Source: Escherichia phage vB_EcoM_TH18. From it: a DNA stretch of 64,000 nt. The notes under the pieces are model-generated. The model saw nothing but the letters and a program-made list of their open reading frames with translations, made no database searches and was not told the DNA's origin. Below are positions 1 through 43,260 of the stretch, in pieces. The stretch is taken from sequence record ON075799. One strand, 5' to 3'. The translations under genes and the position numbers were made by a program. How positions within the stretch are numbered: position 1 is the first letter of the stretch; each line of letters starts with the position of its first letter.

Positions 1-17
1 ACCAATCTGCAATAATT

Positions 18-94
18 TGGTGTGACGGACAGGATTCGAACCTGTGACCACCTAGTCTTCAGCAAGGCACTCTACCAACTGAGTTACCGTCACA
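18..94 (-). tRNA. tRNA-Phe (anticodon GAA)
   Basis: Hand-folded cloverleaf on minus strand: 7-bp acceptor, D-stem actc/gagt, anticodon loop CTGAAGA, T-loop GGTTCGAATCC, CCA encoded. Confidence 0.75.
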
Positions 95-98
95 TAAT

Positions 99-175
99 TG
101 GTGGGCGATGAGGGACTCGAACCCCCAAAATTCAGGTTCTAAGCCTGACATGTATACCAATTCCATCAATCGCCC
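99..175 (-). tRNA. tRNA, anticodon UAG (Leu-like decoding) but short variable loop; atypical
   Basis: Minus strand: acceptor gggcgat/atcgccc, anticodon stem tcagg/cctga with loop CTTAGAA, T-arm with TTCGAGT loop, CCA encoded; type-I length (77 nt) despite Leu-type anticodon. Confidence 0.55.
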
Positions 176-189
176 ATCTATATTAACAG

Positions 190-381
190 TTATGGTTTTC
201 CACGATACACAGAAATAGTTTTCCCATTAGCATTGATAACATAAGCGGTCTGATCCTCAGACAAAAACACTTTTTGATCAATGCCGGAAATAGCTATAGA
301 CTTTTGATGAGCACAATACCCAACAATTTTCCCACAAAAAATTTGTTCATCATTTGGAGAGACGACTTTAACTGTTAACAT
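190..381 (-). CDS. hypothetical small protein (63 aa; ORF 190-462 trimmed to internal ATG)
   Basis: Internal ATG at 381 preceded by AGAGGA; the longer ORF would overlap tRNA-Pro. Confidence 0.4.
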   Translation of the reverse strand: MLTVKVVSPNDEQIFCGKIVGYCAHQKSIAISGIDQKVFLSEDQTAYVINANGKTISVYRGKP

Positions 382-423
382 GGTATCCTCTGTACATTTC
401 TGCTTTGATATGTTTATGTTTGT

Positions 424-501
424 TGGTCTGTCCGGTTGGATTTGAACCAACGACCTGGTCATCCCAAGTGACCCGCGCTACCCAAGCTGCGCTACGGACA
501 G
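424..501 (-). tRNA. tRNA-Pro (anticodon UGG)
   Basis: Minus strand: acceptor ctgtccg/cggacag, D-stem gcgc/gcgc, anticodon stem ggtca/tgacc loop CTTGGGA, T-loop TTCAAAT, CCA encoded. Confidence 0.75.
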
Positions 502-585
502 AGAAATGTAGATTTTAATTGTCCCAGAATCTACTAACTGGTATCGCTGGCTAGGTGATATCTGTGACTTGATTAAGTCAAGAAT

Positions 586-677
586 TGGCGGTTCCTGAAG
601 GATTCGAACCTTCGGTGGGGAGATTCATTCCCAACGGCTTAACAGGCCGTCACCATCGACCACTCGGTCAAAGAACC
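586..677 (-). tRNA. tRNA, type II-like (long variable arm), anticodon loop CTGTTAA (GUU?); identity uncertain
   Basis: Minus strand: acceptor ggttctt/aggaacc, anticodon stem acggc/gccgt, extra stem-loop ggga-atgaatc-tccc, T-arm gaagg-TTCGAAT-ccttc, CCA encoded; 92 nt. Confidence 0.5.
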
Positions 678-686
678 TGAATATTT

Positions 687-763
687 TGGTGGATCTGGTT
701 GGGGTCGAACCAACAATCTCTCGATTAAAAGTCGAGTGACTTAAACCATTTGGCTACAAATCC
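687..763 (-). tRNA. tRNA-Lys (anticodon UUU)
   Basis: Minus strand: acceptor ggatttg/cagatcc, anticodon stem ctcga/tcgag loop CTTTTAA, T-arm gttgg-TTCGACC-ccaac, CCA encoded. Confidence 0.7.
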
Positions 764-780
764 GTTAAATTATCTTTAAA

Positions 781-810
781 ATAGCTAATTACTCGCACAT
801 AATTAGCTAT
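781..810. repeat. perfect 10-bp-stem hairpin (atagctaatt / aattagctat) in inter-tRNA spacer
   Basis: Exact inverted repeat with 10-nt loop read directly from sequence. Confidence 0.6.
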
Positions 811-996
811 ACGCAACAACTCTCCAAGGAGAGCACACTAATGATCGATTACGATTATATGACTAAATTTAGACCATCATAAGTGTTTGGCTTACGCCAG
901 TAAAGAGCGGACTGCTCTGGGGTATCGGTAAGATGGTTGCAGCCATCTACCGAAAAATCACACCAAGCAACTAAACAAGCTACATTAAAGATAACT

Positions 997-1085
997 TGGA
1001 GGAGGCTGACAGAATCGAACTGTCACCATATCTCTACAGCGGGACTGGGTTCAAACCAGCTTGTGCACCATGCACCCCAGCCTCC
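997..1085 (-). tRNA. tRNA-Ser (anticodon UGA)
   Basis: Minus strand: acceptor ggaggct/agcctcc, anticodon loop TTTGAAC, long variable arm, T-arm gacag-TTCGATT-ctgtc, CCA encoded; 89 nt. Confidence 0.7.
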
Positions 1086-1156
1086 AAAGATAGCCTCTGC
1101 CGAGGATATACACCCAACAAAGGAGGCGCTCAGGTCAGAAGAAATCTGAGCCTTAA

Positions 1157-1250
1157 TGGAGGAAGATGCCAGACTTGAACTGGCACACCCATTTCTGGGT
1201 TACTATCTCCTTAGCAGGGAGATCCCTTACCAAATTAGGGTTAATCTTCC
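1157..1250 (-). tRNA. tRNA-Ser (anticodon GCU)
   Basis: Minus strand: acceptor ggaagat/atcttcc, anticodon stem tctcc/ggaga loop CTGCTAA, long variable arm, T-arm gccag-TTCAAGT-ctggc, CCA encoded. Confidence 0.7.
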
Positions 1251-1271
1251 AATACCTTAGTAATTAAAAAC

Positions 1272-1361
1272 TGGTGGAGAAGGAGAGAATCGAACTCTCA
1301 AGCCGTTTTACCAGTCAGCACATTTCCAATGTGCTTTCGTCGCCAATCGATTTGCTTCTCC
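1272..1361 (-). tRNA. tRNA-Ser (anticodon GGA)
   Basis: Minus strand: acceptor ggagaag/cttctcc, anticodon stem gcaca/tgtgc loop TTGGAAA, long variable arm, T-arm gagag-TTCGATT-ctctc, CCA encoded. Confidence 0.65.
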
Positions 1362-1370
1362 GTTTTAACT

Positions 1371-1446
1371 TGGCAGGGGATGGTTGATTCGAACAACCGA
1401 TCACGGGGTCAAAGCCCGTTGCATTAGGCCACTATGCTAATCCCCT
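1371..1446 (-). tRNA. tRNA-Gln (anticodon UUG)
   Basis: Minus strand: acceptor aggggat/atcccct, D-stem gcat/atgc, anticodon stem acggg/cccgt loop CTTTGAC, T-loop TTCGAAT, CCA encoded. Confidence 0.7.
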
Positions 1447-1452
1447 TTTGCA

Positions 1453-1527
1453 CGAGAGTGAGGAATAGAACCTCTTAGTCACTGGTTTTGGAGGCCAGCC
1501 TTCACCCAGTGAAGTTACGCTACTCTC
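1453..1527 (-). tRNA. tRNA-Trp (anticodon CCA)
   Basis: Minus strand: anticodon loop CTCCAAA, T-arm with TTCTATT loop, acceptor gagagt/actctc; CCA not encoded. Confidence 0.6.
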
Positions 1528-1535
1528 ATTAAAAA

Positions 1536-2093
1536 CTATTTTCGAAAAGGACTTATGAAAAATGCCAACATCACTCTCTCTCTTGAAAAAGCTCTGTCTT
1601 CAGGAACCACACTCTTCAGTTTCCAACCGACATAAATTCGCCAGTAAAATTGTTTTCCAAACAATCTAAAAGACGGGACAAACGCGAATACACCCCACGC
1701 ATTGTCATTCCACATCAACAAATAGCCTTGTTGGTTATCCTCCACATCAGAGCTTACATGGAGGTTTCCTTTCCACTTTGTCACAGATGTGATTTCACGT
1801 CCAAGTACGTGATAGGAGAAATTGTAGGCTTTATTTCTCCACAACCAAGCAACTCGTTGTAGGTAAACACCAAAACTTCCTATTTTACGGACTTCTTCCC
1901 ATCTCTCTATGTGTCCTCTATCACCGTCTATAGGATTATCATATGTCTCCATCCACCTGAAAATATAAGGCAGATGCCCTGTCTTCTCATTATAGAACGG
2001 AACAACAAAAGGAGCCAGAATAACACAGAGAACCGACATAACTGGGTCAAGAGGTGCTAACAGGATCCACGATAAATATTTTAAGTATCTCAT
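1536..2093 (-). CDS. hypothetical protein (185 aa, aromatic-rich, hydrophobic N-terminus)
   Basis: Long ORF between tRNA sub-clusters; no recognisable motif. Confidence 0.5.
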   Translation of the reverse strand: MRYLKYLSWILLAPLDPVMSVLCVILAPFVVPFYNEKTGHLPYIFRWMETYDNPIDGDRGHIERWEEVRKIGSFGVYLQRVAWLWRNKAYNFSYHVLGREITSVTKWKGNLHVSSDVEDNQQGYLLMWNDNAWGVFAFVPSFRLFGKQFYWRIYVGWKLKSVVPEDRAFSRERVMLAFFISPFRK

Positions 2094-2320
2094 GCAGGAT
2101 CAAGCCTAGATATAATGTACTGGTTTAAATCTGAATATGGGAAGATACTTTCAAAGATAACCTGTTTAAATCTGAAGCCGCACAAACCGAAAAGTACCTT
2201 CTGACACTCACCAAAAGAGCAATCTTTACCAACTTTTATCACAACCGTATCGGCAATCTGCACACTTTCTATCTCTTTAGATTCATGATGCCGTACTATG
2301 ATTACTTTAGAAACCATCAT
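2090..2320 (-). CDS. hypothetical protein (76 aa)
   Basis: ORF whose stop overlaps the start of the downstream gene by 4 bp (translational coupling pattern). Confidence 0.4.
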   Translation of the reverse strand: MMVSKVIIVRHHESKEIESVQIADTVVIKVGKDCSFGECQKVLFGLCGFRFKQVIFESIFPYSDLNQYIISRLDPA

Positions 2321-2445
2321 ACTCGTCCATATTAAAGCCTTCTACTAAAGATAGTAGATGTCTAGGGTTGGACCGCAAACGCAACCCCATGGAATTTGTT
2401 ACGGTCTTCAGTTGACCCAAGCGGATTTCATTGACATCTTTTAAC

Positions 2446-2520
2446 TGGAGCATCCAGAGGGTATCGAACCCTCGACTTCAGCTTGGAAGGCTGTAGTTTT
2501 CCCAATTAAACTATGGATGC
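2446..2520 (-). tRNA. tRNA-Gly (anticodon UCC)
   Basis: Minus strand: acceptor gcatcca/tggatgc, D-stem gttt/aaac, anticodon loop CTTCCAA, T-arm gaggg-TTCGATA-ccctc, CCA encoded. Confidence 0.7.
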
Positions 2521-2525
2521 ATATT

Positions 2526-2601
2526 TGGTGGGAGTGGTAGGCTCTGCCCCTACGTCCTCTCGATTATCGGTCGAGCGATCTACTAACTGATCTACACTCC
2601 C
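2526..2601 (-). tRNA. tRNA-Ile-like (anticodon GAU), atypical T-loop
   Basis: Minus strand: acceptor gggagtg/cactccc, D-stem gatc/gatc, anticodon stem ctcga/tcgag loop CCGATAA, T-stem gtagg/cctac but loop GGCAGAG lacks TTC; CCA encoded. Confidence 0.5.
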
Positions 2602-2665
2602 AAACTGTACTGGCCCAACAACCACGATTGGAGGGTATCGTCACACATCAAAGCCAGTACAGTTT
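2602..2665. repeat. 13-bp-stem hairpin (aaactgtactggc / gccagtacagttt, 38-nt loop) filling the spacer between two tRNAs
   Basis: Exact inverted repeat read from sequence; no T-loop, so not a tRNA. Confidence 0.55.
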
Positions 2666-2669
2666 TAGT

Positions 2670-2759
2670 TGGTGTGCCGTGATAGAGTCGAACTACCCGA
2701 GTCCCTTTCGAGACAGGAGATTTACAGTCTCCCCCGCTACCCCTACGGTCTAACGACAC
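2670..2759 (-). tRNA. tRNA-Tyr (anticodon GUA), type II
   Basis: Minus strand: acceptor gtgtcgt/acggcac (one G-U), anticodon stem ggaga/tctcc loop CTGTAAA, long variable region, T-arm ggtag-TTCGACT-ctatc, CCA encoded; D-arm irregular. Confidence 0.6.
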
Positions 2760-2760
2760 A

Positions 2761-3108
2761 TTAACCTTGTTTGAATTGAACAATATCCGTCGAGAACGGT
2801 TTAGCTGCCTTAATAGGTGCTTTTTCTGAGTTATCTTTTTCGAGTAACTCTTCGTTTTCCTCATCAAAGTAATCAGAAAGCATCTGCTCACCTTTCTCAA
2901 TAACATAACGAGCTATATTTTCTCTGATATTGTCTTTTGTATTCACATTCTTCATCAAATCCCTAAGAACCTGATGAGCTTCAGGAATCATTGCAATCAG
3001 ATTCGTTTTTAAATCTAGGATATTTTTCTCTAACTGAATTGCATTAGATTCCTCTTTCAGAGGACGACCTTTTCCTCTTCTACGTTTTGTAAGCTGCTTA
3101 GTAGCCAT
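2761..3108 (-). CDS. hypothetical protein (115 aa from internal ATG; acidic C-terminal half)
   Basis: ORF 2761-3333 trimmed to the Met at 3108 because the upstream part overlaps tRNA-Cys. Confidence 0.45.
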   Translation of the reverse strand: MATKQLTKRRRGKGRPLKEESNAIQLEKNILDLKTNLIAMIPEAHQVLRDLMKNVNTKDNIRENIARYVIEKGEQMLSDYFDEENEELLEKDNSEKAPIKAAKPFSTDIVQFKQG

Positions 3109-3193
3109 TTTAAAACCCCACTTAATGATATTATCAAATAAAAACATATCTGTCAAGTGGTATTTTAACATATTTACCAAGAAATTGAAAGTT

Positions 3194-3270
3194 TGGAGCA
3201 CGGTGTCGGACTTGAACCGACATATATCTGTTTTGCAGACAGATCCGTAACCAAATTCCAGCAACCGTGC
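3194..3270 (-). tRNA. tRNA-Cys (anticodon GCA)
   Basis: Minus strand: acceptor gcacggt/accgtgc, anticodon stem tctgt/acaga loop CTGCAAA, T-arm with TTCAAGT loop, CCA encoded. Confidence 0.7.
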
Positions 3271-3356
3271 AATAAGTACCCCAGGTAGAGAACCTATAGA
3301 GTGGGTCTTACGAGCCGCGCTGACGATTCTCAAGTTGGGGTTAATCTGGTCGAGGA

Positions 3357-3433
3357 GACAGGATTCGAACCTGTGACCTACGGCTTAGAAGGCCGCTGCT
3401 CTATCCAACTGAGCTACACCCCGAAAATAAGAA
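3357..3433 (-). tRNA. tRNA-Arg (anticodon UCU)
   Basis: Minus strand: canonical D-arm tagctcagttggatagagc, anticodon stem gcggc/gccgt loop CTTCTAA, T-arm acagg-TTCGAAT-cctgt, CCA encoded. Confidence 0.7.
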
Positions 3434-3623
3434 TGCTTTATAGTGTATGGTTACTCAACCTCACTCCAACTTCCACAGTTGGTGCTCTACGAGCATGACT
3501 ACGTTTGAAATCAACGTTGCGCACCGATAGCTTTCTCACGCATTGTATGCCTCATTCCCAACAAATGCTGATCAGACATTTATATCGAATAATATAAGCT
3601 AATACACTATAAAACAAACTTGT

Positions 3624-3720
3624 GGCTGGGTGATGGAATCGAACCACCTATGTATTCAACGGCTTCCCCGTCTATTTTCAGGATTATAAATCCTCGCCCT
3701 TGCCAAAGGGCTTACCCAGC
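3624..3720 (-). tRNA. tRNA-like gene, unusually long (about 97 nt); anticodon loop TTTATAA (UAU?) with about 30-nt insertion before the T-arm
   Basis: Minus strand: acceptor gctgggt/acccagc, D-stem gccc/gggc, 4-bp anticodon stem agga/tcct, extra hairpin acgg-ggaag-ccgt, T-arm ggtgg-TTCGATT-ccatc; CCA not encoded. Confidence 0.4.
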
Positions 3721-3722
3721 AT

Positions 3723-3797
3723 TGGTGCTCGCAGCAGGTTTCGAACCTGCAACCCCCTGCTTACAAGGCAGGTGCTCTACCGTTGAGCTATACGAGC
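3723..3797 (-). tRNA. tRNA-Thr (anticodon UGU)
   Basis: Minus strand: acceptor gctcgta/tgcgagc, D-stem gctc/gagc, anticodon stem cctgc/gcagg loop CTTGTAA, T-arm gcagg-TTCGAAA-cctgc, CCA encoded. Confidence 0.75.
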
Positions 3798-4162
3798 AAT
3801 AAGACATTGCTTCCGATTAACAGCCTTGAGGCTTTACAGACCATATCTTGTGAGCCATAACCTGTGCCAAGGATTTCAGATGATAAACGAAATTTTATCT
3901 TTCAAGAGTCAACTTTCAAGTTTCATCTTTTACATTTAACCATTGACCTTTATTGTATGAACTTTTACTTAGTGGAAACAACAAGGCATCTTCGTGTGCC
4001 TCGCTGCATCTATGTCCTGTATTATCCTCATACATATACGATACATGGTGGGGGATATTTAACCTCCAACCCCCAGGAGGCAAGATGATGTAAACTTCGT
4101 TAATCAAAAGCAATGTTTTAAATTTCAAAACAAAGGAACGATAATGATATTATCAGAGCCTT

Positions 4163-4810
4163 TTAGAGAGAGTGCTCAATCTCAATTTCTGTCTTAGCGT
4201 TTGACTCAGACAACGCAAAATCAACGTTAGACAAGAAATCTTCAATCTCTTCTTCAAGAGAACGAATCTTAGAAGCCAGTTCAAGAGGATCCACAACCGA
4301 TGGTGTGTTCATCATTCGAATAGGAGCTTCCACAGTCTTAATCTGCTCTGCATCTGGCGCTTTATCACGTTGGATATATGGCGCTCTTGCATTTTCAAGT
4401 TTATCTTCCAGAGATTTTTCTTCTTTTGCCAGAAGAAGCTGTGCAGAAGCACGCTGTGCACAAAGTTTGTTTAACAACTCTTGTTTAAAGCAAATCGTCC
4501 GTTTGCGTTCGATTGCCTCAGCAACTGTCATAGACACATTACCAATTTTGACAATTGTCTCAGCATTAGACTTAACAATTTTTGCTTTCAGTTCATCACG
4601 CACTGCCAAGAGGTCTTGCAGACTTTGATAGTCGTTGATCGCAGATTTCTTAAAATCATCAACAGAGCCGATATAACCCGGAATCTTACAATTATTCTCA
4701 GTTCCTTTTGCAATCTTAATACAATCAAGATTGTAGATACGCTTATTGATCTTATCTTCAATTTTAGAGATAGAAGCAAGTGCACGAGTTACGGAAATCT
4801 TAGTAGACAT
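4163..4810 (-). CDS. hypothetical protein (215 aa, predicted coiled-coil, K/E-rich)
   Basis: Long ORF; composition only. Confidence 0.55.
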   Translation of the reverse strand: MSTKISVTRALASISKIEDKINKRIYNLDCIKIAKGTENNCKIPGYIGSVDDFKKSAINDYQSLQDLLAVRDELKAKIVKSNAETIVKIGNVSMTVAEAIERKRTICFKQELLNKLCAQRASAQLLLAKEEKSLEDKLENARAPYIQRDKAPDAEQIKTVEAPIRMMNTPSVVDPLELASKIRSLEEEIEDFLSNVDFALSESNAKTEIEIEHSL

Positions 4811-4883
4811 GCGATCTCTCCTATGTAAATCAGCTTTGATAAAGTAACTATCCAGAAAAACAAAAACTATGTCAAGAAAAATT

Positions 4884-5075
4884 TTAATCTTTTACAGCAT
4901 CTTTTATAGAATCACAAAGATCTTGAACAACATCAGATGTCGGTGACAAAATCATCTCGTCGGCTGCTGCTATAGCATCTGATGCTAAATCAACAAACGG
5001 AGTTGTTACCGCAGAAGTCACTTCAACAGCCGTTATTGTTACTTCGCTTGCAATCTTAAGCAAAGATCCTATCAT
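4884..5075 (-). CDS. hypothetical protein (63 aa)
   Basis: Small ORF downstream of the tRNA-Met gene. Confidence 0.3.
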   Translation of the reverse strand: MIGSLLKIASEVTITAVEVTSAVTTPFVDLASDAIAAADEMILSPTSDVVQDLCDSIKDAVKD

Positions 5076-5151
5076 AATCTCAACCCTCCTGAATATCCGT
5101 GATTCCCTTTATTTAACGACGCTGGCTCACGGTGGCACTCTCGTCAATAAA

Positions 5152-5475
5152 CTATTTTTTAGTTTTCTTACCGTTTTCTACAGAAATGCTTGTTTTCTGT
5201 TTCGCTTCTCGTTCGCGCTTTGTTTTCCCAGTGCGAATACGATATGAAGCAGAAATAACTTCACCACCAATGACACGAGACACAGATTCGTAATACATTT
5301 CAGTATTACCGTCTTCATCTTTGCGTTTTTTCAGAACTGCTACAGTTTGCGTTTTACCACCAAGGCGCACATCGTGCGGTGCAGAATGTGTCTGCGTGGA
5401 TTTTGATCCAAACTGAAAAGGTTGCTTTATCGCCTCGATAGCTGACACCTTTTTAGCAGACTGTTTCTTAGCCAT
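5152..5475 (-). CDS. hypothetical basic protein (107 aa from internal ATG, Lys-rich)
   Basis: Internal ATG at 5475 preceded by GGAGG; Lys-rich termini. Confidence 0.45.
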   Translation of the reverse strand: MAKKQSAKKVSAIEAIKQPFQFGSKSTQTHSAPHDVRLGGKTQTVAVLKKRKDEDGNTEMYYESVSRVIGGEVISASYRIRTGKTKREREAKQKTSISVENGKKTKK

Positions 5476-5527
5476 TAAGTTTTCTCCTCCGAAAACAATA
5501 AACATAGTTTATTTCGTGTGCCACATT

Positions 5528-5604
5528 TGGTGGCCCCTGCTGGACTTGAACCAGCGACCAAGCGATTATGAGTCACCTGCTCTATCCAACTGAGCTAAGG
5601 GGCC
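5528..5604 (-). tRNA. tRNA-Met (anticodon CAU; elongator-type or Ile2-type)
   Basis: Minus strand: acceptor ggcccct/aggggcc (G1-C72 paired), canonical D-arm, anticodon loop CTCATAA, T-arm gctgg-TTCAAGT-ccagc, CCA encoded. Confidence 0.7.
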
Positions 5605-5936
5605 GAATCTCTTAATATGAGATGATATTATCCTGTATGATCTACATTGTCAAGAGATATTTTAAAATTTTATACATCCCAGTTTTCTTCTTGATAACAA
5701 CCTTCCCCGAATCCAACTTCTTTTTCAAAATCAATACCTTTTTTCATACATTCCTCACATTAACAGATATTGTTTTCAAACTCAAAACGTAAAATACGAA
5801 CTCTGTCAATACACTGCTGTAATCTACAAAGCAACAACTCAACTTGTTTATGCGTCTCTTCAGTATACGTTTTGGTCATCTTGCTTTTCTCCGTGATCTT
5901 TTCATTGCAGCTTCTGCACGTCTTTGTTTACGATTT

Positions 5937-40142: not shown

Positions 40143-40616
40143 TTAAATCTCCTCTTTCCACAAACCATCTTTTTTAACCCACATTTTTTGGTTATCAGAA
40201 CCCCTGAACCTTTTGGTTGTAGGCTTAGACATATCATACTTACCATCTATAACAATGTCAACAAGATTTTTAATACTTTCAGGTATTTCTTCAAATAAAT
40301 ATCCTGTCCACAGCCAAATGTCTTTATCATCTCCGTAAACTGACCGTACCTTTAAAATAATCTTTATAACACCATCAATATTTTGTGGATCAAGTGGTTC
40401 CCCACCTAAAATTGAGAGTCCTTTTATTTGCTTACGTGCCAAATCCTTTATAATTCTATCTAAGTGTTCGTCTGTAAACATTTCACCATAGCTATATGAC
40501 CAAGCTCTTTGGTTAAAGCATCCGCGACAACAATGACCACATCCGCTAACCCAGAGGGAGCATCGCACTCCCTCCCCGTTGATCATATCTGTTGGTTCAT
40601 AACCGCAGAAATTCAT
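40143..40616 (-). CDS. nrdG: anaerobic ribonucleotide reductase activating protein (radical SAM)
   Basis: CxxxCxxC-type cluster (CGHCCRGC) near the N-terminus; 157 aa; adjacent to nrdD. Confidence 0.8.
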   Translation of the reverse strand: MNFCGYEPTDMINGEGVRCSLWVSGCGHCCRGCFNQRAWSYSYGEMFTDEHLDRIIKDLARKQIKGLSILGGEPLDPQNIDGVIKIILKVRSVYGDDKDIWLWTGYLFEEIPESIKNLVDIVIDGKYDMSKPTTKRFRGSDNQKMWVKKDGLWKEEI

Positions 40617-40993
40617 GTATGTTTCACTCTCTCTACAACTTCTTGCATCTTACCCTTGTTATAAGGACGGCTGTTTGGAGCAGACAAATATCCAGACACA
40701 CGTCTAATCACACTTATTGTTTCTTCATCATGATTGCCACAAGAAGGGCACTCGAATCCCTTAGCTGTGGCCTTGAACTCACCAGAGAAACCACACTCGT
40801 AACATCTATCTACAGGCTGATTTATACCAAAATAAGGGATGTGTTCATATCCATAATCCACTAAGGCTTCCAACGCTTGCATGTTGTTTCTTAGATTAGG
40901 AACTTCCACATAACCTATGTTACCACCATTGCTTATCTCAGCAAACCCACATTCATAATCCCATTTGGAGAATGGATCAGACGTTTTCCACAC
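40613..40993 (-). CDS. nrdD: anaerobic ribonucleoside-triphosphate reductase NrdD, C-terminal segment (exon 3; frame open upstream to about 41116)
   Basis: Zn ribbon CYECGF...CPSCG and glycyl-radical motif RRVSGYL; upstream in-frame YLTNSFH. Confidence 0.75.
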   Translation of the reverse strand: MWKTSDPFSKWDYECGFAEISNGGNIGYVEVPNLRNNMQALEALVDYGYEHIPYFGINQPVDRCYECGFSGEFKATAKGFECPSCGNHDEETISVIRRVSGYLSAPNSRPYNKGKMQEVVERVKHT

Positions 40994-41092
40994 TGGTTGA
41001 TGAAACGAGTTTGTCAGATAATCTCTTTCGATTAATCCTGGGTATGCTTCTTTAAGTTTTGTGGCAAATTTATAACACAGAGATTCTGCCGA

Positions 41093-41379
41093 TGTACCGC
41101 TGCTTTCGCAGTATTTTCACGGACTAGACTATATCACGATCTTGTGACCACTCACAAGACCCTCCACATTTCGCCATTCAAGGCTACTCTACTCGCTTCT
41201 TCACATCAGGTGAAGCTGATGCTATGCTTTCGATAGTCGTTAGAGACAATCTCTTGCCTACGGGGTTAGCTCTGCCCCAACAGGGTTTAGCCTTTCTTAC
41301 CAGCTTATTGTTTATTCAGCTATGCCCGTTTAGTGGAGTTATTCGACAACCATCACTGGTTGAAGGCCCAATTGTGTTT
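41093..41379 (-). other. intervening sequence B in nrdD (about 290 nt, no ORF); candidate group I intron
   Basis: Conserved NrdD motifs FSLYGTP and SAESLC...YLTNSFH are separated by non-coding sequence with stops in frame; boundaries approximate. Confidence 0.45.
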
Positions 41380-41871
41380 AGGCGTGCCATATAGGCTAAA
41401 TGCTAAACCACTTCGCTCTTTAAAATCAGCACAAATATCCTTCATATATTTCAAGATATTCATTGCCATCTCTTTACGAACTGGTTCGCCATACAAAATT
41501 TCAACTGCTTCATAAAGACCCACATAGCCAATACTGATTGATGCGTAGCCATTAAAGAAGAGTTTACTAATCTTTTCATCAGGTCCGAGCCGTGCAATAG
41601 CCCCCTCCATAAACATTGTGGGATTCTGGGATGCTTTTACATCCATCAATCTACCGACTCTAACCATGTGCGCTTTATACGCCATTTCCATGTGCTTTTC
41701 AAGCAATTCGGTAAACAGAGTTTTCTTAGATTTTGCTTCTGCTGCAATCATAGGTAAGTTTAGAGAGACAACACCAAGATTGAATCTACCATCATATTTC
41801 TCACCATGTTCTGTTGCATAATAAGATAAGAAACTTCTACACATTATGTTCGAAGTGGTTCGCAAGGCCAC
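41353..41871 (-). CDS. nrdD: NrdD, middle segment (exon 2)
   Basis: Contains MCRSFL and NLGVVSLNLP motifs as remembered from class III RNR. Confidence 0.7.
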   Translation of the reverse strand: MALRTTSNIMCRSFLSYYATEHGEKYDGRFNLGVVSLNLPMIAAEAKSKKTLFTELLEKHMEMAYKAHMVRVGRLMDVKASQNPTMFMEGAIARLGPDEKISKLFFNGYASISIGYVGLYEAVEILYGEPVRKEMAMNILKYMKDICADFKERSGLAFSLYGTPKHNWAFNQ

Positions 41872-42120
41872 TCCCGCACCACTACGTGCTGCTGCATGTC
41901 ACCATGCAGACCAGACCATATCTTCATGCTTAAAGCATGTCTGCCGTTTGGGGTGTCATCAGCTTACACTCTACATCCCTACATTCATCAGGATTGGTCG
42001 TTAGGCATTTACGGTTGATACCGATTTAGCACGGGATTCCCTCCATAGAGGATTCCCCCGTTTAGGCAGATTTTACATGAGCAGTTATAGTTTACCCATG
42101 CTTGTAACACGCCCGTCTGA
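41845..42120 (-). other. intervening sequence A in nrdD (about 275 nt, no ORF); candidate group I intron
   Basis: Lies between the motifs GDPNYD...KKVTGS (exon 1) and MCRSFL (exon 2); stops in all frames; boundaries approximate. Confidence 0.45.
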
Positions 42121-43260
42121 AGAACCTGTTACCTTTTTATTCAACGGTACAGATATGAAATCTGGATAAATCCTTTCAACACAACACTCCATGGCTAATT
42201 GCTTTAAGTCGTAGTTGGGATCGCCAGGTTTCATGTTTACACCATCTTCCAAGAAGAAGATAACTTTTGGAAAAACAGGTGTGACTTTGTCTTTGCCAAG
42301 TCCGTTTTTGTGAACAAGAAGATAATTCTTTGTAATCATTCTCCCAAAATAGGAAGTATCAAGCCCAAGACTCAAGGTGATAAATGGGCATTGACCGTTA
42401 GCACTCATCAAGGTATTTACCTGATAAAGCAATGTCTGCATAGCATCGTAAACATCTTTTTCCGTCATCTGCATAGCTACACCTTCTGGGTCTGGCAGCC
42501 ATTGCTCCTGACAAAATTTTAGATTTTTATCGTAACTTGCCTTGGCATATTGTTTTAATCCTTCATCAATATGGGTGTATGACTGACCACCATATTGAAC
42601 CGAAGAAACTGATTGGGATATCTGGCTAAGAATGGTACAGGCAACACCTATCGATTTCGGCTTTTCTATTTTTGCATTGCCAATTTTAAAACCGTTCTCC
42701 AACATATCCCTATAATTTACAAGACTGCAATTAGTTAATGGGCTTATCAAATAATCTAAGTCATGTATATGACCATAACCATTTGTATGCCATTCAGCCA
42801 ATTCTTTTGGTAGAATTTGAGTTAGTGAGACGTGCTTGCTAAGGATACCCGCGAGAAGATCACGATGGCTACTAACCACCCCACTTGGTTTATTAGCGTT
42901 TTCTTTAGTAAATTCATCGGCAGTTTGTTCTAAGAATCCCGTAATATCTGCAAACAGTTTTCCTTTACCTTCCCTAACGTTATCACGCGTTTTACGATAT
43001 TCAATATACGCCCGTGCAGCGTTCTTGAGGTCAAGATCCATTAGTGAATCTTCCACAATGCGGTGAATATCACAAACAGCCACTTTCTCTTGCGGTGGTT
43101 CTGATTTTTCCAGAGTTTCATAGGCTTGCTCGCCAACTGCACACGCCAGAGGATATGATTTCTCACCATAACCAGCAGCAATTAAAGCGGCTTCTGCCGC
43201 TTTAATAACTTTCACACCATCATAATCTTCTTCACGCCCATCACGTTTAACAACTTTCAT
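42085..43260 (-). CDS. nrdD: NrdD, N-terminal segment (exon 1, ATP-cone plus catalytic core start)
   Basis: N-terminal MKVVKRDGREEDYD ATP-cone-like start; GDPNYD motif near the end. Confidence 0.75.
   Translation of the reverse strand: MKVVKRDGREEDYDGVKVIKAAEAALIAAGYGEKSYPLACAVGEQAYETLEKSEPPQEKVAVCDIHRIVEDSLMDLDLKNAARAYIEYRKTRDNVREGKGKLFADITGFLEQTADEFTKENANKPSGVVSSHRDLLAGILSKHVSLTQILPKELAEWHTNGYGHIHDLDYLISPLTNCSLVNYRDMLENGFKIGNAKIEKPKSIGVACTILSQISQSVSSVQYGGQSYTHIDEGLKQYAKASYDKNLKFCQEQWLPDPEGVAMQMTEKDVYDAMQTLLYQVNTLMSANGQCPFITLSLGLDTSYFGRMITKNYLLVHKNGLGKDKVTPVFPKVIFFLEDGVNMKPGDPNYDLKQLAMECCVERIYPDFISVPLNKKVTGSSDGRVTSMGKL

What the first reader, a model, noticed from the sequence alone, without database searches (positions are those of the whole stretch)
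18..5604. Large tRNA cluster with three structurally atypical members
Eighteen tRNA-like genes were folded by hand on the minus strand. Three are odd. 99-175 has a Leu-type UAG anticodon but a short variable loop. 586-677 has a long variable arm yet an Asn-type GUU anticodon loop. 3624-3720 is about 97 nt with a roughly 30-nt insertion before the T-arm and a UAU-type loop. A fourth (2526-2601) has a T-loop lacking TTC. These could be tRNA-derived regulatory RNAs, decoys for tRNA-targeting nucleases, or tRNAs with non-standard identity.
Basis: partly seen in the sequence, partly recalled or inferred. Interest (0 to 1): 0.5.

Follow-up and report, generated by a model that had tools for sequence, protein, structure and literature searches.

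The report
Phage tRNA cluster with non-canonical members
This E. coli phage carries 18 tRNA genes, five of which depart from the textbook tRNA shape; related phages keep each departure, so they are real, selected variants rather than errors or dead genes.

Summary
The window comes from an Avunavirus phage (18-1-2/Av-05).

- **Leu(UAG), 99-175:** a leucine tRNA without the long arm. It keeps the E. coli leucine identity elements. A phage BF23 homologue is annotated as an effective suppressor.
- **Asn(GUU), 586-677:** it has a 4-bp extra arm that covaries across nine sequences. It keeps GUU and G73.
- **Ile(GAU), 2526-2601:** it has C33, no TTC in the T-loop, and a matching change in the D-loop.
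it has an 8/4 acceptor/T branch and a 6-bp D hairpin.
- **3624-3720:** this belongs to a phage-only, single-copy family resembling selenocysteine tRNA. All 21 pairs form in 24 sequences. Its anticodon-like triplet differs between genera: UAU here, UUU, NCC or UCA elsewhere.

My reading is that four are working decoders with remodelled bodies. The fifth is probably not an ordinary decoder. Escape from host tRNA nucleases as the driver is inference only.

The parts
18..93 (-). tRNA-Phe(GAA), canonical
   Evidence: ARAGORN; Rfam tRNA model 68.4 bits
99..175 (-). tRNA-Leu(UAG), 77 nt, with a 5-nt variable loop (AUUUU) instead of the long arm. It has a Leu-type D-arm (GAAUUGGUAUA) and A73-CCA.
   Evidence: ARAGORN; Rfam 63 bits. 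Orthologues occur in Seunavirus and in T5-like BF23, with anticodon-stem covariation. The D-loop differs at 1 of 11 positions from E. coli leuT. The BF23 record carries a suppressor note.
424..501 (-). tRNA-Pro(UGG)
   Evidence: ARAGORN; Rfam 62.4 bits
586..677 (-). tRNA-Asn(GUU), 92 nt, with a paired variable arm (GGGA-AUGAA-UCUC). It has a Ser/Tyr-like D-arm, the loop CUGUUAA and G73-CCA.
   Evidence: ARAGORN; Rfam 56.8 bits. Orthologues of 85-92 nt occur in Avuna-, Seuna- and Mydovirus and in jumbo phage 7t3. The arm is 100% paired with 3 of 4 pairs compensatory.
687..763 (-). tRNA-Lys(UUU)
   Evidence: ARAGORN; Rfam 61.3 bits
997..1085 (-). tRNA-Ser(UGA), U73
   Evidence: ARAGORN; orthologues
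1157..1250 (-). tRNA-Ser(GCU), U73
   Evidence: ARAGORN; Rfam 41 bits
1272..1361 (-). tRNA-Ser(GGA) with A73; its same-scaffold orthologues (PVP-SE1, L010, L034) have G73
   Evidence: ARAGORN; comparison of orthologues
1371..1446 (-). tRNA-Gln(UUG)
   Evidence: ARAGORN; Rfam 61.2 bits
1448..1529 (-). Non-canonical tRNA-Trp(CCA). It has an 8-bp acceptor stem, a 4-bp T stem, a 6-bp D hairpin with a 3-nt loop, A1-U72 and G73. The window copy has T-loop UUCUAUU and 3' CAA instead of CCA.
   Evidence: ARAGORN misses it. Rfam tRNA-Sec model 32 bits, below threshold. 23 pairs are 94.9% paired and 6 of 6 D-hairpin pairs are compensatory across 6 sequences. PVP-SE1 annotates the orthologue as tRNA-Trp.
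2446..2520 (-). tRNA-Gly(UCC)
   Evidence: ARAGORN; Rfam 63.4 bits
2526..2601 (-). tRNA-Ile(GAU) with C33, T-loop GGCAGAG (no TTC) and D-loop AGUUAGUA (A where G18 normally sits); A73-CCA
   Evidence: Rfam 53.4 bits; ARAGORN misses it. The MFE fold is a cloverleaf. The table of orthologues shows the D-loop and T-loop changes always occur together, and the T stem covaries.
2670..2759 (-). tRNA-Tyr(GUA)
   Evidence: ARAGORN
3194..3270 (-). tRNA-Cys(GCA)
   Evidence: ARAGORN; Rfam 53.1 bits
3347..3423 (-). tRNA-Arg(UCU)
   Evidence: ARAGORN; Rfam 69.9 bits
3621..3720 (-). tRNA-like RNA resembling tRNA-Sec ('X97'). It has a 7-bp acceptor stem, a 6-bp D stem with tetraloop UGGC, anticodon-like loop UUUAUAA, a 31-nt variable region with a hairpin, and a canonical T arm. 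C73 is at 3624, followed by ACA instead of CCA.
   Evidence: Rfam tRNA model 33.1 bits. It is 92-94% identical in about 120 rV5-like phages. The family alignment has 21 pairs 100% paired, 10 of them compensatory. The family model scores 100.6 bits here and finds one copy per genome.
3723..3797 (-). tRNA-Thr(UGU), 2 nt upstream of X97
   Evidence: ARAGORN; Rfam 73.6 bits
5528..5604 (-). tRNA(CAU), 96% identical to E. coli ileX. It is therefore tRNA-Ile2, the AUA reader after lysidine modification, not tRNA-Met.
   Evidence: ARAGORN; alignment to ileX
5625..5653 (-). Promoter-like site (TTGACA, 17 nt, TAATAT) upstream of the first tRNA. Similar 10-of-12 sites lie at 4847-4875, 3892-3919 and 3128-3156.
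   Evidence: Consensus scan only

Best explanation
This is the multi-promoter tRNA gene cluster of an Avunavirus (Vequintavirinae) E. coli phage. It supplies tRNAs for codons the phage uses more than its host does.

Four members keep the anticodon loop, discriminator base and other elements that E. coli synthetases read. These are Leu(UAG) without the long arm, Asn(GUU) with an added 4-bp arm, Ile(GAU) with C33 and a remodelled D-loop/T-loop corner, and Trp(CCA) with an 8/4 acceptor/T branch and a long D hairpin. They most likely act as ordinary decoders charged with their normal amino acids. Only the tRNA body has been remodelled.

The fifth member, 3624-3720, belongs to a phage-restricted, single-copy family resembling tRNA-Sec. 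It sits 2 nt after tRNA-Thr and is probably cut out like a tRNA. Its anticodon-like triplet differs between phage genera, so in this phage it is probably not a standard isoacceptor.

Shown here: the structures, their conservation, their covariation and the identity elements. Inferred: aminoacylation, decoding, and the idea that body remodelling is selected because it escapes host tRNA-targeting nucleases or toxins.
For: **Origin and gene calls.** The window is 100% identical to phage 18-1-2 and 95.6% to Av-05. ARAGORN and Rfam confirm all 18 genes.

**Codon supply.** Codons matched by the phage tRNAs are enriched against an E. coli sample: AGA 6.6x, ACA 2.5x, TCT 2.5x, ATA 2.2x, CTA 1.8x.

**Leu.** It has A14, A15, G18G19, A20a, U48 and A73. 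Its D-loop differs at 1 of 11 positions from E. coli leuT. A review states that E. coli LeuRS needs these elements and not the long arm (PMC9976931). The BF23 record says the CUA-anticodon version of the 77-nt homologue is an effective amber suppressor.

**Asn.** The loop CUGUUAA and G73 are invariant. Anticodon plus G73 transfers Asn identity into tRNA-Lys (PMC9976931). The arm is 100% paired and 3 of 4 pairs are compensatory. Contigs L034 and L043 show the same arm inserted into a body like E. coli tRNA-Asn.

**Ile.** The T stem covaries. The A18 D-loop always occurs with the RGCARAG T-loop.

**Trp.** 6 of 6 D-hairpin pairs are compensatory. A1-U72, G73 and CCA match E. coli Trp identity.

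**X97.** 21 pairs are 100% paired in 24 distinct sequences, 10 are compensatory, and 0 of 500 shuffles reach the observed values. There is one copy per genome. No true member was found in 185,579 bacterial species genomes. A member sits in an unrelated Schitoviridae phage.
Against: No expression, processing or charging data exist for this phage.

The window copy of Trp has U57 in the T-loop and CAA instead of CCA, so it may be decaying. X97 lacks an encoded CCA.

Ile lacks T54, Psi55 and U33, which are almost universal in working elongator tRNAs.

The class II Asn also carries G1-C72, G2-C71 and G73, so charging by SerRS is not excluded.

Nothing here links any structural change to a defence system. 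Drift under relaxed constraint could also produce conserved oddities once compensated.

The Leu suppressor evidence is a database note on a 77%-identical homologue, not on this gene.
Confidence: 0.6

Rival explanations
1. X97, and possibly other odd members, are decoys or competitive inhibitors of host tRNA-targeting defence nucleases. They are tRNA-shaped RNAs whose anticodon arm imitates a target tRNA and soaks up the nuclease without taking part in translation.
For: The anticodon-like loop is the one part of X97 that differs between phage genera, while every helix and both linkers are conserved.

In the E. coli phage lineages the 3' side of the loop and stem reads UAAUC-C. This is the same string the PARIS paper gives for the AriB site in E. 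coli tRNA-Asn (PMC12409363). That paper also suggests over-expressed viral tRNAs might inhibit AriB by competition.

In contrast, the cluster's own Thr and Asn tRNAs have G39 where the PARIS paper's E. coli target motif (U36AAUC) has U39.

U32-A38 and U33-A37 can pair, closing the loop to three bases. No CCA is encoded.
Against: UAAUC is a short string that could arise by chance. Seuna- and Mydovirus members lack it. Many members carry UCA with U73-CCA, which looks like a working suppressor tRNA. No experiment links this family to any nuclease.
Confidence: 0.2
2. Some members have non-standard identity and recode. The class II Asn(GUU) would be charged with serine. X97 would be a missense or nonsense suppressor whose amino acid is set by the body and not by the anticodon, as proposed for allo-tRNAs and nematode nev-tRNAs.
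For: Asn carries an extra arm, G73, G1-C72 and G2-C71, and serine identity rests mainly on the arm (PMC9976931).

X97 homologues in the two annotated Erwinia phage records, pEp_SNUABM_01 and Hena1, are labelled tRNA-TERM and carry UCA. They score 36-42 bits on the tRNA-Sec model.

Allo-tRNAs also combine a Sec-like D-arm, a long arm and diverse anticodons in which UAU is common (PMC5389517).
Against: Asn codons make up about 49 per 1000 (AAT 28.2, AAC 21.0) and this is the only Asn tRNA in the cluster, so serine insertion would be costly. GUU plus G73 suffices for AsnRS. The arm stem is only 4 bp.

UGA still ends 7 of 50 ORFs in loci with the UCA type, and that share does not clearly differ from other groups. 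UCA-type members have A33, not U33. Seuna-type loops are 6 nt.
Confidence: 0.1
3. The odd members are decaying pseudogenes, or tolerated drift with no function of their own.
For: ARAGORN fails on three of them. The window Trp copy lost CCA and has U57. X97 lost CCA in the Avuna- and Vequintavirus lineages. The neighbouring nineteenth tRNA-like gene has several acceptor mismatches.
Against: Every helix is kept by compensatory changes across genera. X97 is the only part of the 5.8-kb region still over 90% identical between Avuna- and Vequintavirus, and it has moved into an unrelated phage family. Pseudogenes would not show this pattern.
Confidence: 0.1

Closest known systems
T5/BF23 tRNA gene region (tRNA-Leu 'tRNAL1' and its tRNA-like stable RNAs)
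   Same: It is a phage tRNA cluster interspersed with small ORFs and promoters. It holds a homologous 77-nt Leu(UAG) with the same D-arm and short variable loop. The record also lists 'tRNA-like RNA with unknown functions' inside the cluster.
   Different: It belongs to a different phage family (Demerecviridae). The X97 family model finds no member in the BF23 region. BF23 Asn and Ile are canonical (U33, class I).
Allo-tRNAs, (8/4) tRNAs and SelC* tRNA-Cys (Mukai et al. 2017, PMC5389517)
   Same: These are tRNA-Sec-like bodies with a long D stem, a tetraloop and a long variable arm. Their anticodons are diverse and include UAU and UCA, and U73 is common. 8/4 tRNAs were found in phages. X97 shares the D-arm, long arm and variable anticodon. 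The Trp gene shares the 8/4 branch.
   Different: X97 has a 7/5 branch, not 8/4 or 9/3, and a longer variable region of 31 nt. The 8/4 Trp has no long arm. An 8/4 tRNA-Trp is not among the species that paper names (Ser, His, Cys, Sec) in the parts I read.
Bacterial tRNA-Sec (Rfam RF01852)
   Same: X97 shares the 6-bp D stem with a 4-nt loop and the long variable arm. Homologues in other genera have the loop CAUCAAA, one base away from my recollection of the E. coli selC loop CUUCAAA (I did not fetch selC).
   Different: The acceptor/T branch is 7/5, not 8/5. The discriminator is C73 or U73, not G73. The triplet here is UAU. UCA-type members have A33. Scores lie below the family threshold (36-42 bits against 47).
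Phage tRNAs that escape anticodon nucleases (T5 Lys/Thr/Asn against PARIS AriB; van den Berg et al. 2023)
   Same: The cluster encodes the same target isoacceptors: Lys(UUU), Thr(UGU), Asn(GUU) and Tyr(GUA). Thr and Asn carry G39 in place of the U39 of the target motif, and a U39-to-A change in E. coli tRNA-Lys abolished AriB cleavage (PMC12409363).
   Different: The published escapes are point changes in the anticodon stem-loop. Here the departures are whole-arm changes: an arm gained, an arm lost, and a remodelled D-loop/T-loop corner. No link to defence has been tested.
Nematode nev-tRNAs (class II tRNAs with non-Leu/Ser anticodons, PMC3333845)
   Same: They are natural tRNAs with a long variable arm and an anticodon for an amino acid that normally uses class I tRNAs.
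   Different: They are eukaryotic. From my own recollection, not from a text read here, they are charged with leucine. The phage Asn tRNA keeps the full Asn identity set.

Membership tests
Canonical bacterial elongator tRNA (Rfam RF00005) | Score at or above the family threshold of 29 bits | tested here: met
   Leu 63, Asn 56.8, Ile 53.4 and X97 33.1 bits. The Trp-like gene did not appear under RF00005; its best hit was the tRNA-Sec model at 32 bits.
Canonical bacterial elongator tRNA (Rfam RF00005) | A long variable arm only in Leu, Ser and Tyr; a 4-5 nt loop in all others | tested here: not met
   Leu(UAG) has a 5-nt loop and Asn(GUU) has a paired arm. Both states are conserved in relatives.
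Canonical bacterial elongator tRNA (Rfam RF00005) | U33, a T54-Psi55-C56 T-loop and G18G19 in the D-loop | tested here: not met
   Ile(GAU) has C33, T-loop GGCAGAG and D-loop AGUUAGUA. Leu, Asn and X97 keep UUCGA and GG.
Canonical bacterial elongator tRNA (Rfam RF00005) | A 7-bp acceptor stem, a 5-bp T stem and a 3-4 bp D stem with a 7-11 nt loop | tested here: not met
   In Trp, U8-A65 pairs in all 6 sequences, whereas pair 49-65 would be A-A. This gives an 8/4 branch. Its D hairpin is 6 bp with a 3-nt loop. The X97 D stem is 6 bp with a 4-nt loop.
E. coli leucine identity set (for 99-175) | A73, the A15-U48 pair, G18G19 and A20a; the long arm is not required | tested here: met
   All are present in the sequence. 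The rule comes from PMC9976931. Charging itself cannot be tested with these tools.
E. coli asparagine identity set (for 586-677) | G34-U35-U36 and G73 | tested here: met
   The loop CUGUUAA and G73-CCA are invariant in 9 orthologues. The rule comes from PMC9976931.
tRNA-Sec (RF01852), considered for X97 | Score at or above 47 bits; 8/5 branch; UCA anticodon; G73 | tested here: not met
   The window copy is best matched by RF00005. UCA-type homologues reach only 36-42 bits. The branch is 7/5. The triplet is UAU and the discriminator C73.
tRNA-Sec (RF01852), considered for X97 | A 6-bp D stem with a 4-nt loop and a long variable arm | tested here: met
   The six D-stem pairs are 100% paired and 3 are compensatory. 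The variable region is 31 nt with a hairpin.
Allo-tRNA (Mukai 2017), considered for X97 | An 8/4 or 9/3 acceptor/T branch | tested here: not met
   A8 faces C65, so no eighth pair can form. The 7-bp acceptor and 5-bp T stems are 100% paired.
(8/4) tRNAs (Mukai 2017), considered for Trp 1448-1529 | An 8-bp acceptor stem and a 4-bp T stem making a 12-bp branch | tested here: met
   The 8/4 structure is 93.8% and 100% paired in the two helices. However, the eighth pair never varies, so support comes from pairing logic and not from covariation.
BF23/T5 tRNA-like stable RNAs (RNA1, RNA2, RNA3) | Sequence or structure homology to X97 | tested here: not met
   The family model gives nothing above ordinary class II tRNA scores in the BF23 region; the best hit is 28.8 bits on a tRNA-Ser.

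The most novel reading that the evidence does not exclude
X97 represents a phage-only scaffold resembling tRNA-Sec whose anticodon is re-targeted from genus to genus: UCA opal-reading in the Erwinia phages pEp_SNUABM_01 and Hena1 and in a Schitoviridae phage, NCC in Seuna- and Mydovirus, UUU in rV5-like phages, UAU here. It would act either as a programmable recoding tRNA or as a mimic that disarms host anticodon nucleases. In parallel, the gain and loss of whole arms in Asn, Trp and Leu would be a previously unrecognised way for phage tRNAs to escape host enzymes that recognise the tRNA body.
Probability: 0.2. Interest if true: 0.85.

Novelty: new variant of a known kind. Interest (0 to 1): 0.6.

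Why it matters
Bacterial tRNA class is treated as fixed: long arm for Leu, Ser and Tyr, short loop for the rest. [quoted passage not shown]

This one cluster, and its relatives across a whole phage subfamily, holds conserved natural exceptions that must work with E. coli enzymes:
- a leucine tRNA without the arm;
- an asparagine tRNA with an arm;
- an isoleucine tRNA without the T-Psi-C motif or U33;
- an 8/4 tryptophan tRNA.

These are ready-made test cases for what synthetases, EF-Tu, RNase P, modification enzymes and the ribosome really require. They also let one test whether phage tRNAs escape tRNA-cleaving defences through their body shape as well as their anticodon loops.

The X97 family is a widespread structured RNA that is unannotated in most of the phage records listed, including rV5-like phages, and its function is unknown.

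Tried and rejected
- **BLAST against E. coli genomes.** Searching the Asn and Leu genes against all E. coli genomes found nothing, because the queries are short and the database is 28 Gb. I fetched individual K-12 tRNA loci instead.
- **Global identity to E. coli tRNAs.** This was uninformative for most genes. The exception was tRNA(CAU), which equals ileX.
- **Asn derived from a Tyr or Ser tRNA by anticodon mutation.** I first favoured this because of the D-arm and a T arm identical to E. coli tyrU. It was weakened when contigs L034 and L043 showed the same arm in a body like E. coli tRNA-Asn.
- **Gapped motif search.** My first gapped motif for X97 matched nothing.
- **Bacterial origin for X97.** The single genome hit, in Sporosarcina, is not a member.
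- **UGA avoidance in phages with the UCA-type X RNA.** TGA ended 7 of 50 ORFs there against 20 of 99 in Seuna/Mydovirus loci. This is inconclusive.
- **Literature.** Searches of the held library found no paper describing these structural variants in Vequintavirinae. The library is incomplete, so this is not proof of novelty.
- **X97 as coding sequence.** One record annotates a small CDS over it. I rejected that reading because of the covariation.

Full report
**Origin and observation.** The first 5.8 kb of the window is 100% identical to Escherichia phage 18-1-2 and 95.6% identical to phage Av-05. Both are Vequintavirinae of the genus Avunavirus. Neither record annotates any tRNA.

ARAGORN finds 15 tRNAs on the minus strand between 18 and 5604. 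The Rfam tRNA model adds 2529-2601 at 53.4 bits and, in E-value mode, 3624-3720 at 33.1 bits. The tRNA-Sec model gives a sub-threshold hit at 1454-1525. A nineteenth tRNA-like gene in the full phage overlaps window positions 1-11.

The other two are visible in the sequence.

**Context.** Four promoter-like sites matching 10 of 12 consensus positions lie on the minus strand, upstream of tRNA groups (consensus matches only). Small ORFs are interspersed, as in the T5/BF23 tRNA region.

Codons read by the phage tRNAs are enriched in 51 window ORFs relative to 33 E. coli ORFs: AGA 6.6x, ACA 2.5x, TCT 2.5x, ATA 2.2x and CTA 1.8x. This fits the usual codon-supply role.

The tRNA(CAU) at 5528-5604 is 96% identical to E. 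coli ileX. It is therefore tRNA-Ile2, the AUA reader, and not tRNA-Met.

**Leu(UAG), 99-175.** The gene is almost invariant in Seunavirus phages (GAP31, 4MG, PVP-SE1, SSE121), with compensatory changes in the anticodon stem. A 77-nt homologue exists in T5-like phages including BF23.

Its D-arm (UG-AUG-GAAUUGGUAUA-CAU) matches E. coli leuT (UG-GCG-GAAUUGGUAGA-CGC) with compensated stem changes. It carries A14, A15, G18G19, A20a, U48 and A73. A review states that E. coli LeuRS needs A73, A15-U48, G18G19 and A20a. The same review says the long arm is not required and that variants lacking it remain active (PMC9976931).

The BF23 record notes that replacing the anticodon of the homologue with CUA gives an effective amber suppressor.

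Some relatives keep a long-arm Leu(UAG) of 85-86 nt (for example VIK251 and contig L030). The VIK251 copy shares its anticodon arm with E. coli leuW. GAP31 and 4MG also have a short Leu(UAA). Arm loss is therefore lineage-specific and has happened more than once.

I conclude this is a working leucine tRNA that has lost the arm.

**Asn(GUU), 586-677.** Orthologues of 85-92 nt occur in Avuna-, Seuna- and Mydovirus, in several metagenomic contigs and in the 349-kb Salmonella phage 7t3. The loop CUGUUAA and G73-CCA never change.

The extra arm is a 4-bp stem. It is capped by a GNRA tetraloop (GAAA, GCAA or GGAA) in seven of the nine sequences; the window copy has AUGAA and contig L034 has AUUA. 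In nine distinct sequences the stem is 100% paired and three of four pairs show compensatory changes. No shuffle reached the observed covariation score.

Two body types carry the arm. One has a D-arm and anticodon arm like E. coli tRNA-Asn (L034, L043). The other, including the window copy, has a D-arm like Ser or Tyr tRNAs. The arm therefore seems to have been added to an Asn tRNA, with the D-arm remodelled later.

Asn identity in E. coli is the anticodon plus G73, and it can be transplanted into tRNA-Lys (PMC9976931). The likeliest reading is Asn charging. The tRNA also has G1-C72, G2-C71 and an arm, so some charging by SerRS cannot be excluded.

**Ile(GAU), 2526-2601.** The minimum-free-energy fold is a clean cloverleaf. 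Three lineages share an A at the G18 position (D-loop AGUUAGUA or AGUCAGUA) together with a T-loop RGCARAG: the window phage, PVP-SE1/SSE121 and VIK251-like phages. Every relative with GG in the D-loop has a normal UUC T-loop.

G19-C56 is kept. The T stem covaries (GUAGG/CCUAC against GCAGG/CCUGC). This looks like a coordinated change of the 18-55 and 54-58 corner contacts, though it probably arose only once.

C33 replaces U33 in all Vequintavirinae-type Ile(GAU) genes examined. It does not in BF23 or E. coli. A73, GAU and C29-G41 are present.

Six sequences from five lineages support an 8-bp acceptor stem, a 4-bp T stem and a 6-bp D hairpin with a 3-nt loop. Overall 94.9% of cells are paired, and all six D-hairpin pairs show compensatory changes.

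The eighth pair, U8-A65, is invariant, whereas a 7/5 reading would need an A-A pair. The 8/4 reading therefore rests on pairing logic. A1-U72, G73 and CCA match E. coli Trp identity.

The window copy differs from Av-05 by U57 in the T-loop and CAA instead of CCA, so it may be weakened. Mukai et al. reported 8/4 tRNAs for Ser and His in phages (PMC5389517).

**X97, 3624-3720.** This is the only part of the 5.8-kb region still 92-94% identical in about 120 rV5-like phages. There it is annotated as tRNA-OTHER, tRNA-???(atcc) or tRNA-Lys, or not at all.

A motif scan recovered about 30 distinct homologues from viral and metagenomic contigs. In a 24-sequence alignment, 21 pairs are 100% paired: 7 acceptor, 6 D, 3 shared anticodon-stem and 5 T. 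Ten pairs have compensatory changes, and 0 of 500 shuffles reach the observed values.

A covariance model finds exactly one copy per genome at 100-114 bits. It finds none in BF23 or 7t3. The motif scan found no true member in 185,579 bacterial species genomes. The model also finds one unannotated member in the tRNA cluster of an unrelated Schitoviridae phage.

In most of the recovered sequences (not the rV5-like ones) the element begins 2-3 nt after another tRNA's CCA. Most members end in U73-CCA. Two single-stranded linkers are almost invariant: GAAAA after the anticodon stem, and AAUACAUA before the T stem.

The anticodon-like loop is fixed within lineages but differs between them:
- UUUAUAA in Avunavirus;
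- UUUUUAA in Vequintavirus;
- a 6-nt CAUCCA, CAGCCA, CCUCCA or CUUCCA in Seuna- and Mydovirus;
- CAUCAAA, UAUCAAA or AAUCAAG in Erwinia phages pEp_SNUABM_01 and Hena1 and in many contigs.

Those two Erwinia phage records annotate it as tRNA-TERM. UCA-type members score 36-42 bits on the tRNA-Sec model, below its 47-bit threshold.

In the window copy, U32-A38 and U33-A37 can pair and close the loop to three bases. No CCA is encoded.

The family thus combines a Sec-like D-arm, a long variable region and a variable anticodon, as allo-tRNAs do. Its branch is 7/5, however, so it fails the defining allo-tRNA feature.

I read X97 as a selected, tRNA-shaped RNA that is probably not an ordinary isoacceptor in this phage. 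AUA is already covered by tRNA-Ile2.

**A broader pattern.** In the fetched relatives, ARAGORN also finds long-arm versions of Trp(CCA), Cys(GCA) and Glu(UUC). It finds a Lys(UUU) with a small GCAA-capped hairpin inside the D-loop in PVP-SE1, and further unassignable tRNA-like genes. Gain and loss of small hairpins in tRNA bodies is therefore common in this phage group.

**Mechanism and its limits.** The structures, their conservation, their covariation and the presence of identity elements are shown. Charging, decoding and the selective cause are inferred.

The attractive cause is escape from host enzymes that recognise tRNA bodies. PARIS AriB cuts E. coli tRNA-Lys(UUU), Thr(UGU) and Asn(GUU) at the motif U36AAUC. 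A U39-to-A change abolishes cleavage, and recognition also involves positions far from the anticodon loop (PMC12409363).

The cluster's Thr and Asn tRNAs carry G39, while X97 carries UAAUC-C. This is suggestive only. Drift followed by compensation is a fair alternative.

**Novelty.** I found no description of these variants in the held literature. Several are already annotated as plain tRNAs in GenBank, and the short Leu has an experimental note in the BF23 record.

I rate the cluster as a new variant of a known kind. Interest is 0.6, mainly for tRNA biology and for the phage-defence field.

Noticed in passing
window 40613-43260 (minus strand); intron hit at 41892-42132: There is a group I intron here (Rfam 79.8 bits). 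The anaerobic ribonucleotide reductase gene nrdD is split into three ORFs covering Pfam profile positions 1-263, 263-415 and 449-562. The intron explains the first break. The second gap, about 40994-41352, is unexplained.
   Followed up: partly
window 5528-5604 (minus strand): The tRNA that ARAGORN calls Met(CAU) is 96% identical to E. coli ileX (tRNA-Ile2, the AUA reader). No other gene in the cluster exceeded 77% identity to any E. coli tRNA in the partial comparison set, which suggests recent capture from a host.
   Followed up: yes
window 1272-1361 (minus strand): Ser(GGA) has discriminator A73, while its same-scaffold orthologues (PVP-SE1, L010, L034) have G73. G73 is reported as an antideterminant against LeuRS and TyrRS, so identity might be affected. 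Ser(UGA) and Ser(GCU) have U73.
   Followed up: partly
window 1-11, continuing beyond the window (L001 5933-6011): A nineteenth tRNA-like gene (CAU loop, 79 nt) has several acceptor-stem mismatches. Its relatives in PVP-SE1 and SSE121 are 82 nt with an enlarged D region, and different tools call them Met or Ala.
   Followed up: partly
L043 4186-4272, L057 6275-6360, L030 10932-11019, L054 5859-5947, L006 6848-6933: Related phage contigs hold long-arm versions of Trp(CCA), Cys(GCA) and Glu(UUC). PVP-SE1 has a Lys(UUU) with a GCAA-capped mini-hairpin inside the D-loop. The Glu and Lys hairpins carry GNRA tetraloops (GAAA, GCAA); the stems are 3-4 bp.
   Followed up: partly
L064 2501-2607 (Salmonella phage vB_SenP_UTK0002, Schitoviridae): An unannotated UCA-type member of the X97 family (108 bits) sits in the tRNA cluster of an unrelated podovirus family. 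This implies horizontal transfer.
   Followed up: yes
Variable region of many X97 homologues with a UCA or 6-nt NCC-type loop (e.g. L013, L039, L054, L057, L064, VIK251): A conserved loop motif, GAACUAACAGUA(C), is closed by a short covarying stem (GUC/GAC, GCG/CGC, GCC/GGC, UCC/GGA). It is absent from the window copy and its role is unknown.
   Followed up: no
L001 861-3606 (just beyond the window in phage 18-1-2): In the 18-1-2 record the terminase large subunit is annotated in several pieces, with an HNH homing endonuclease ORF between them.
   Followed up: no
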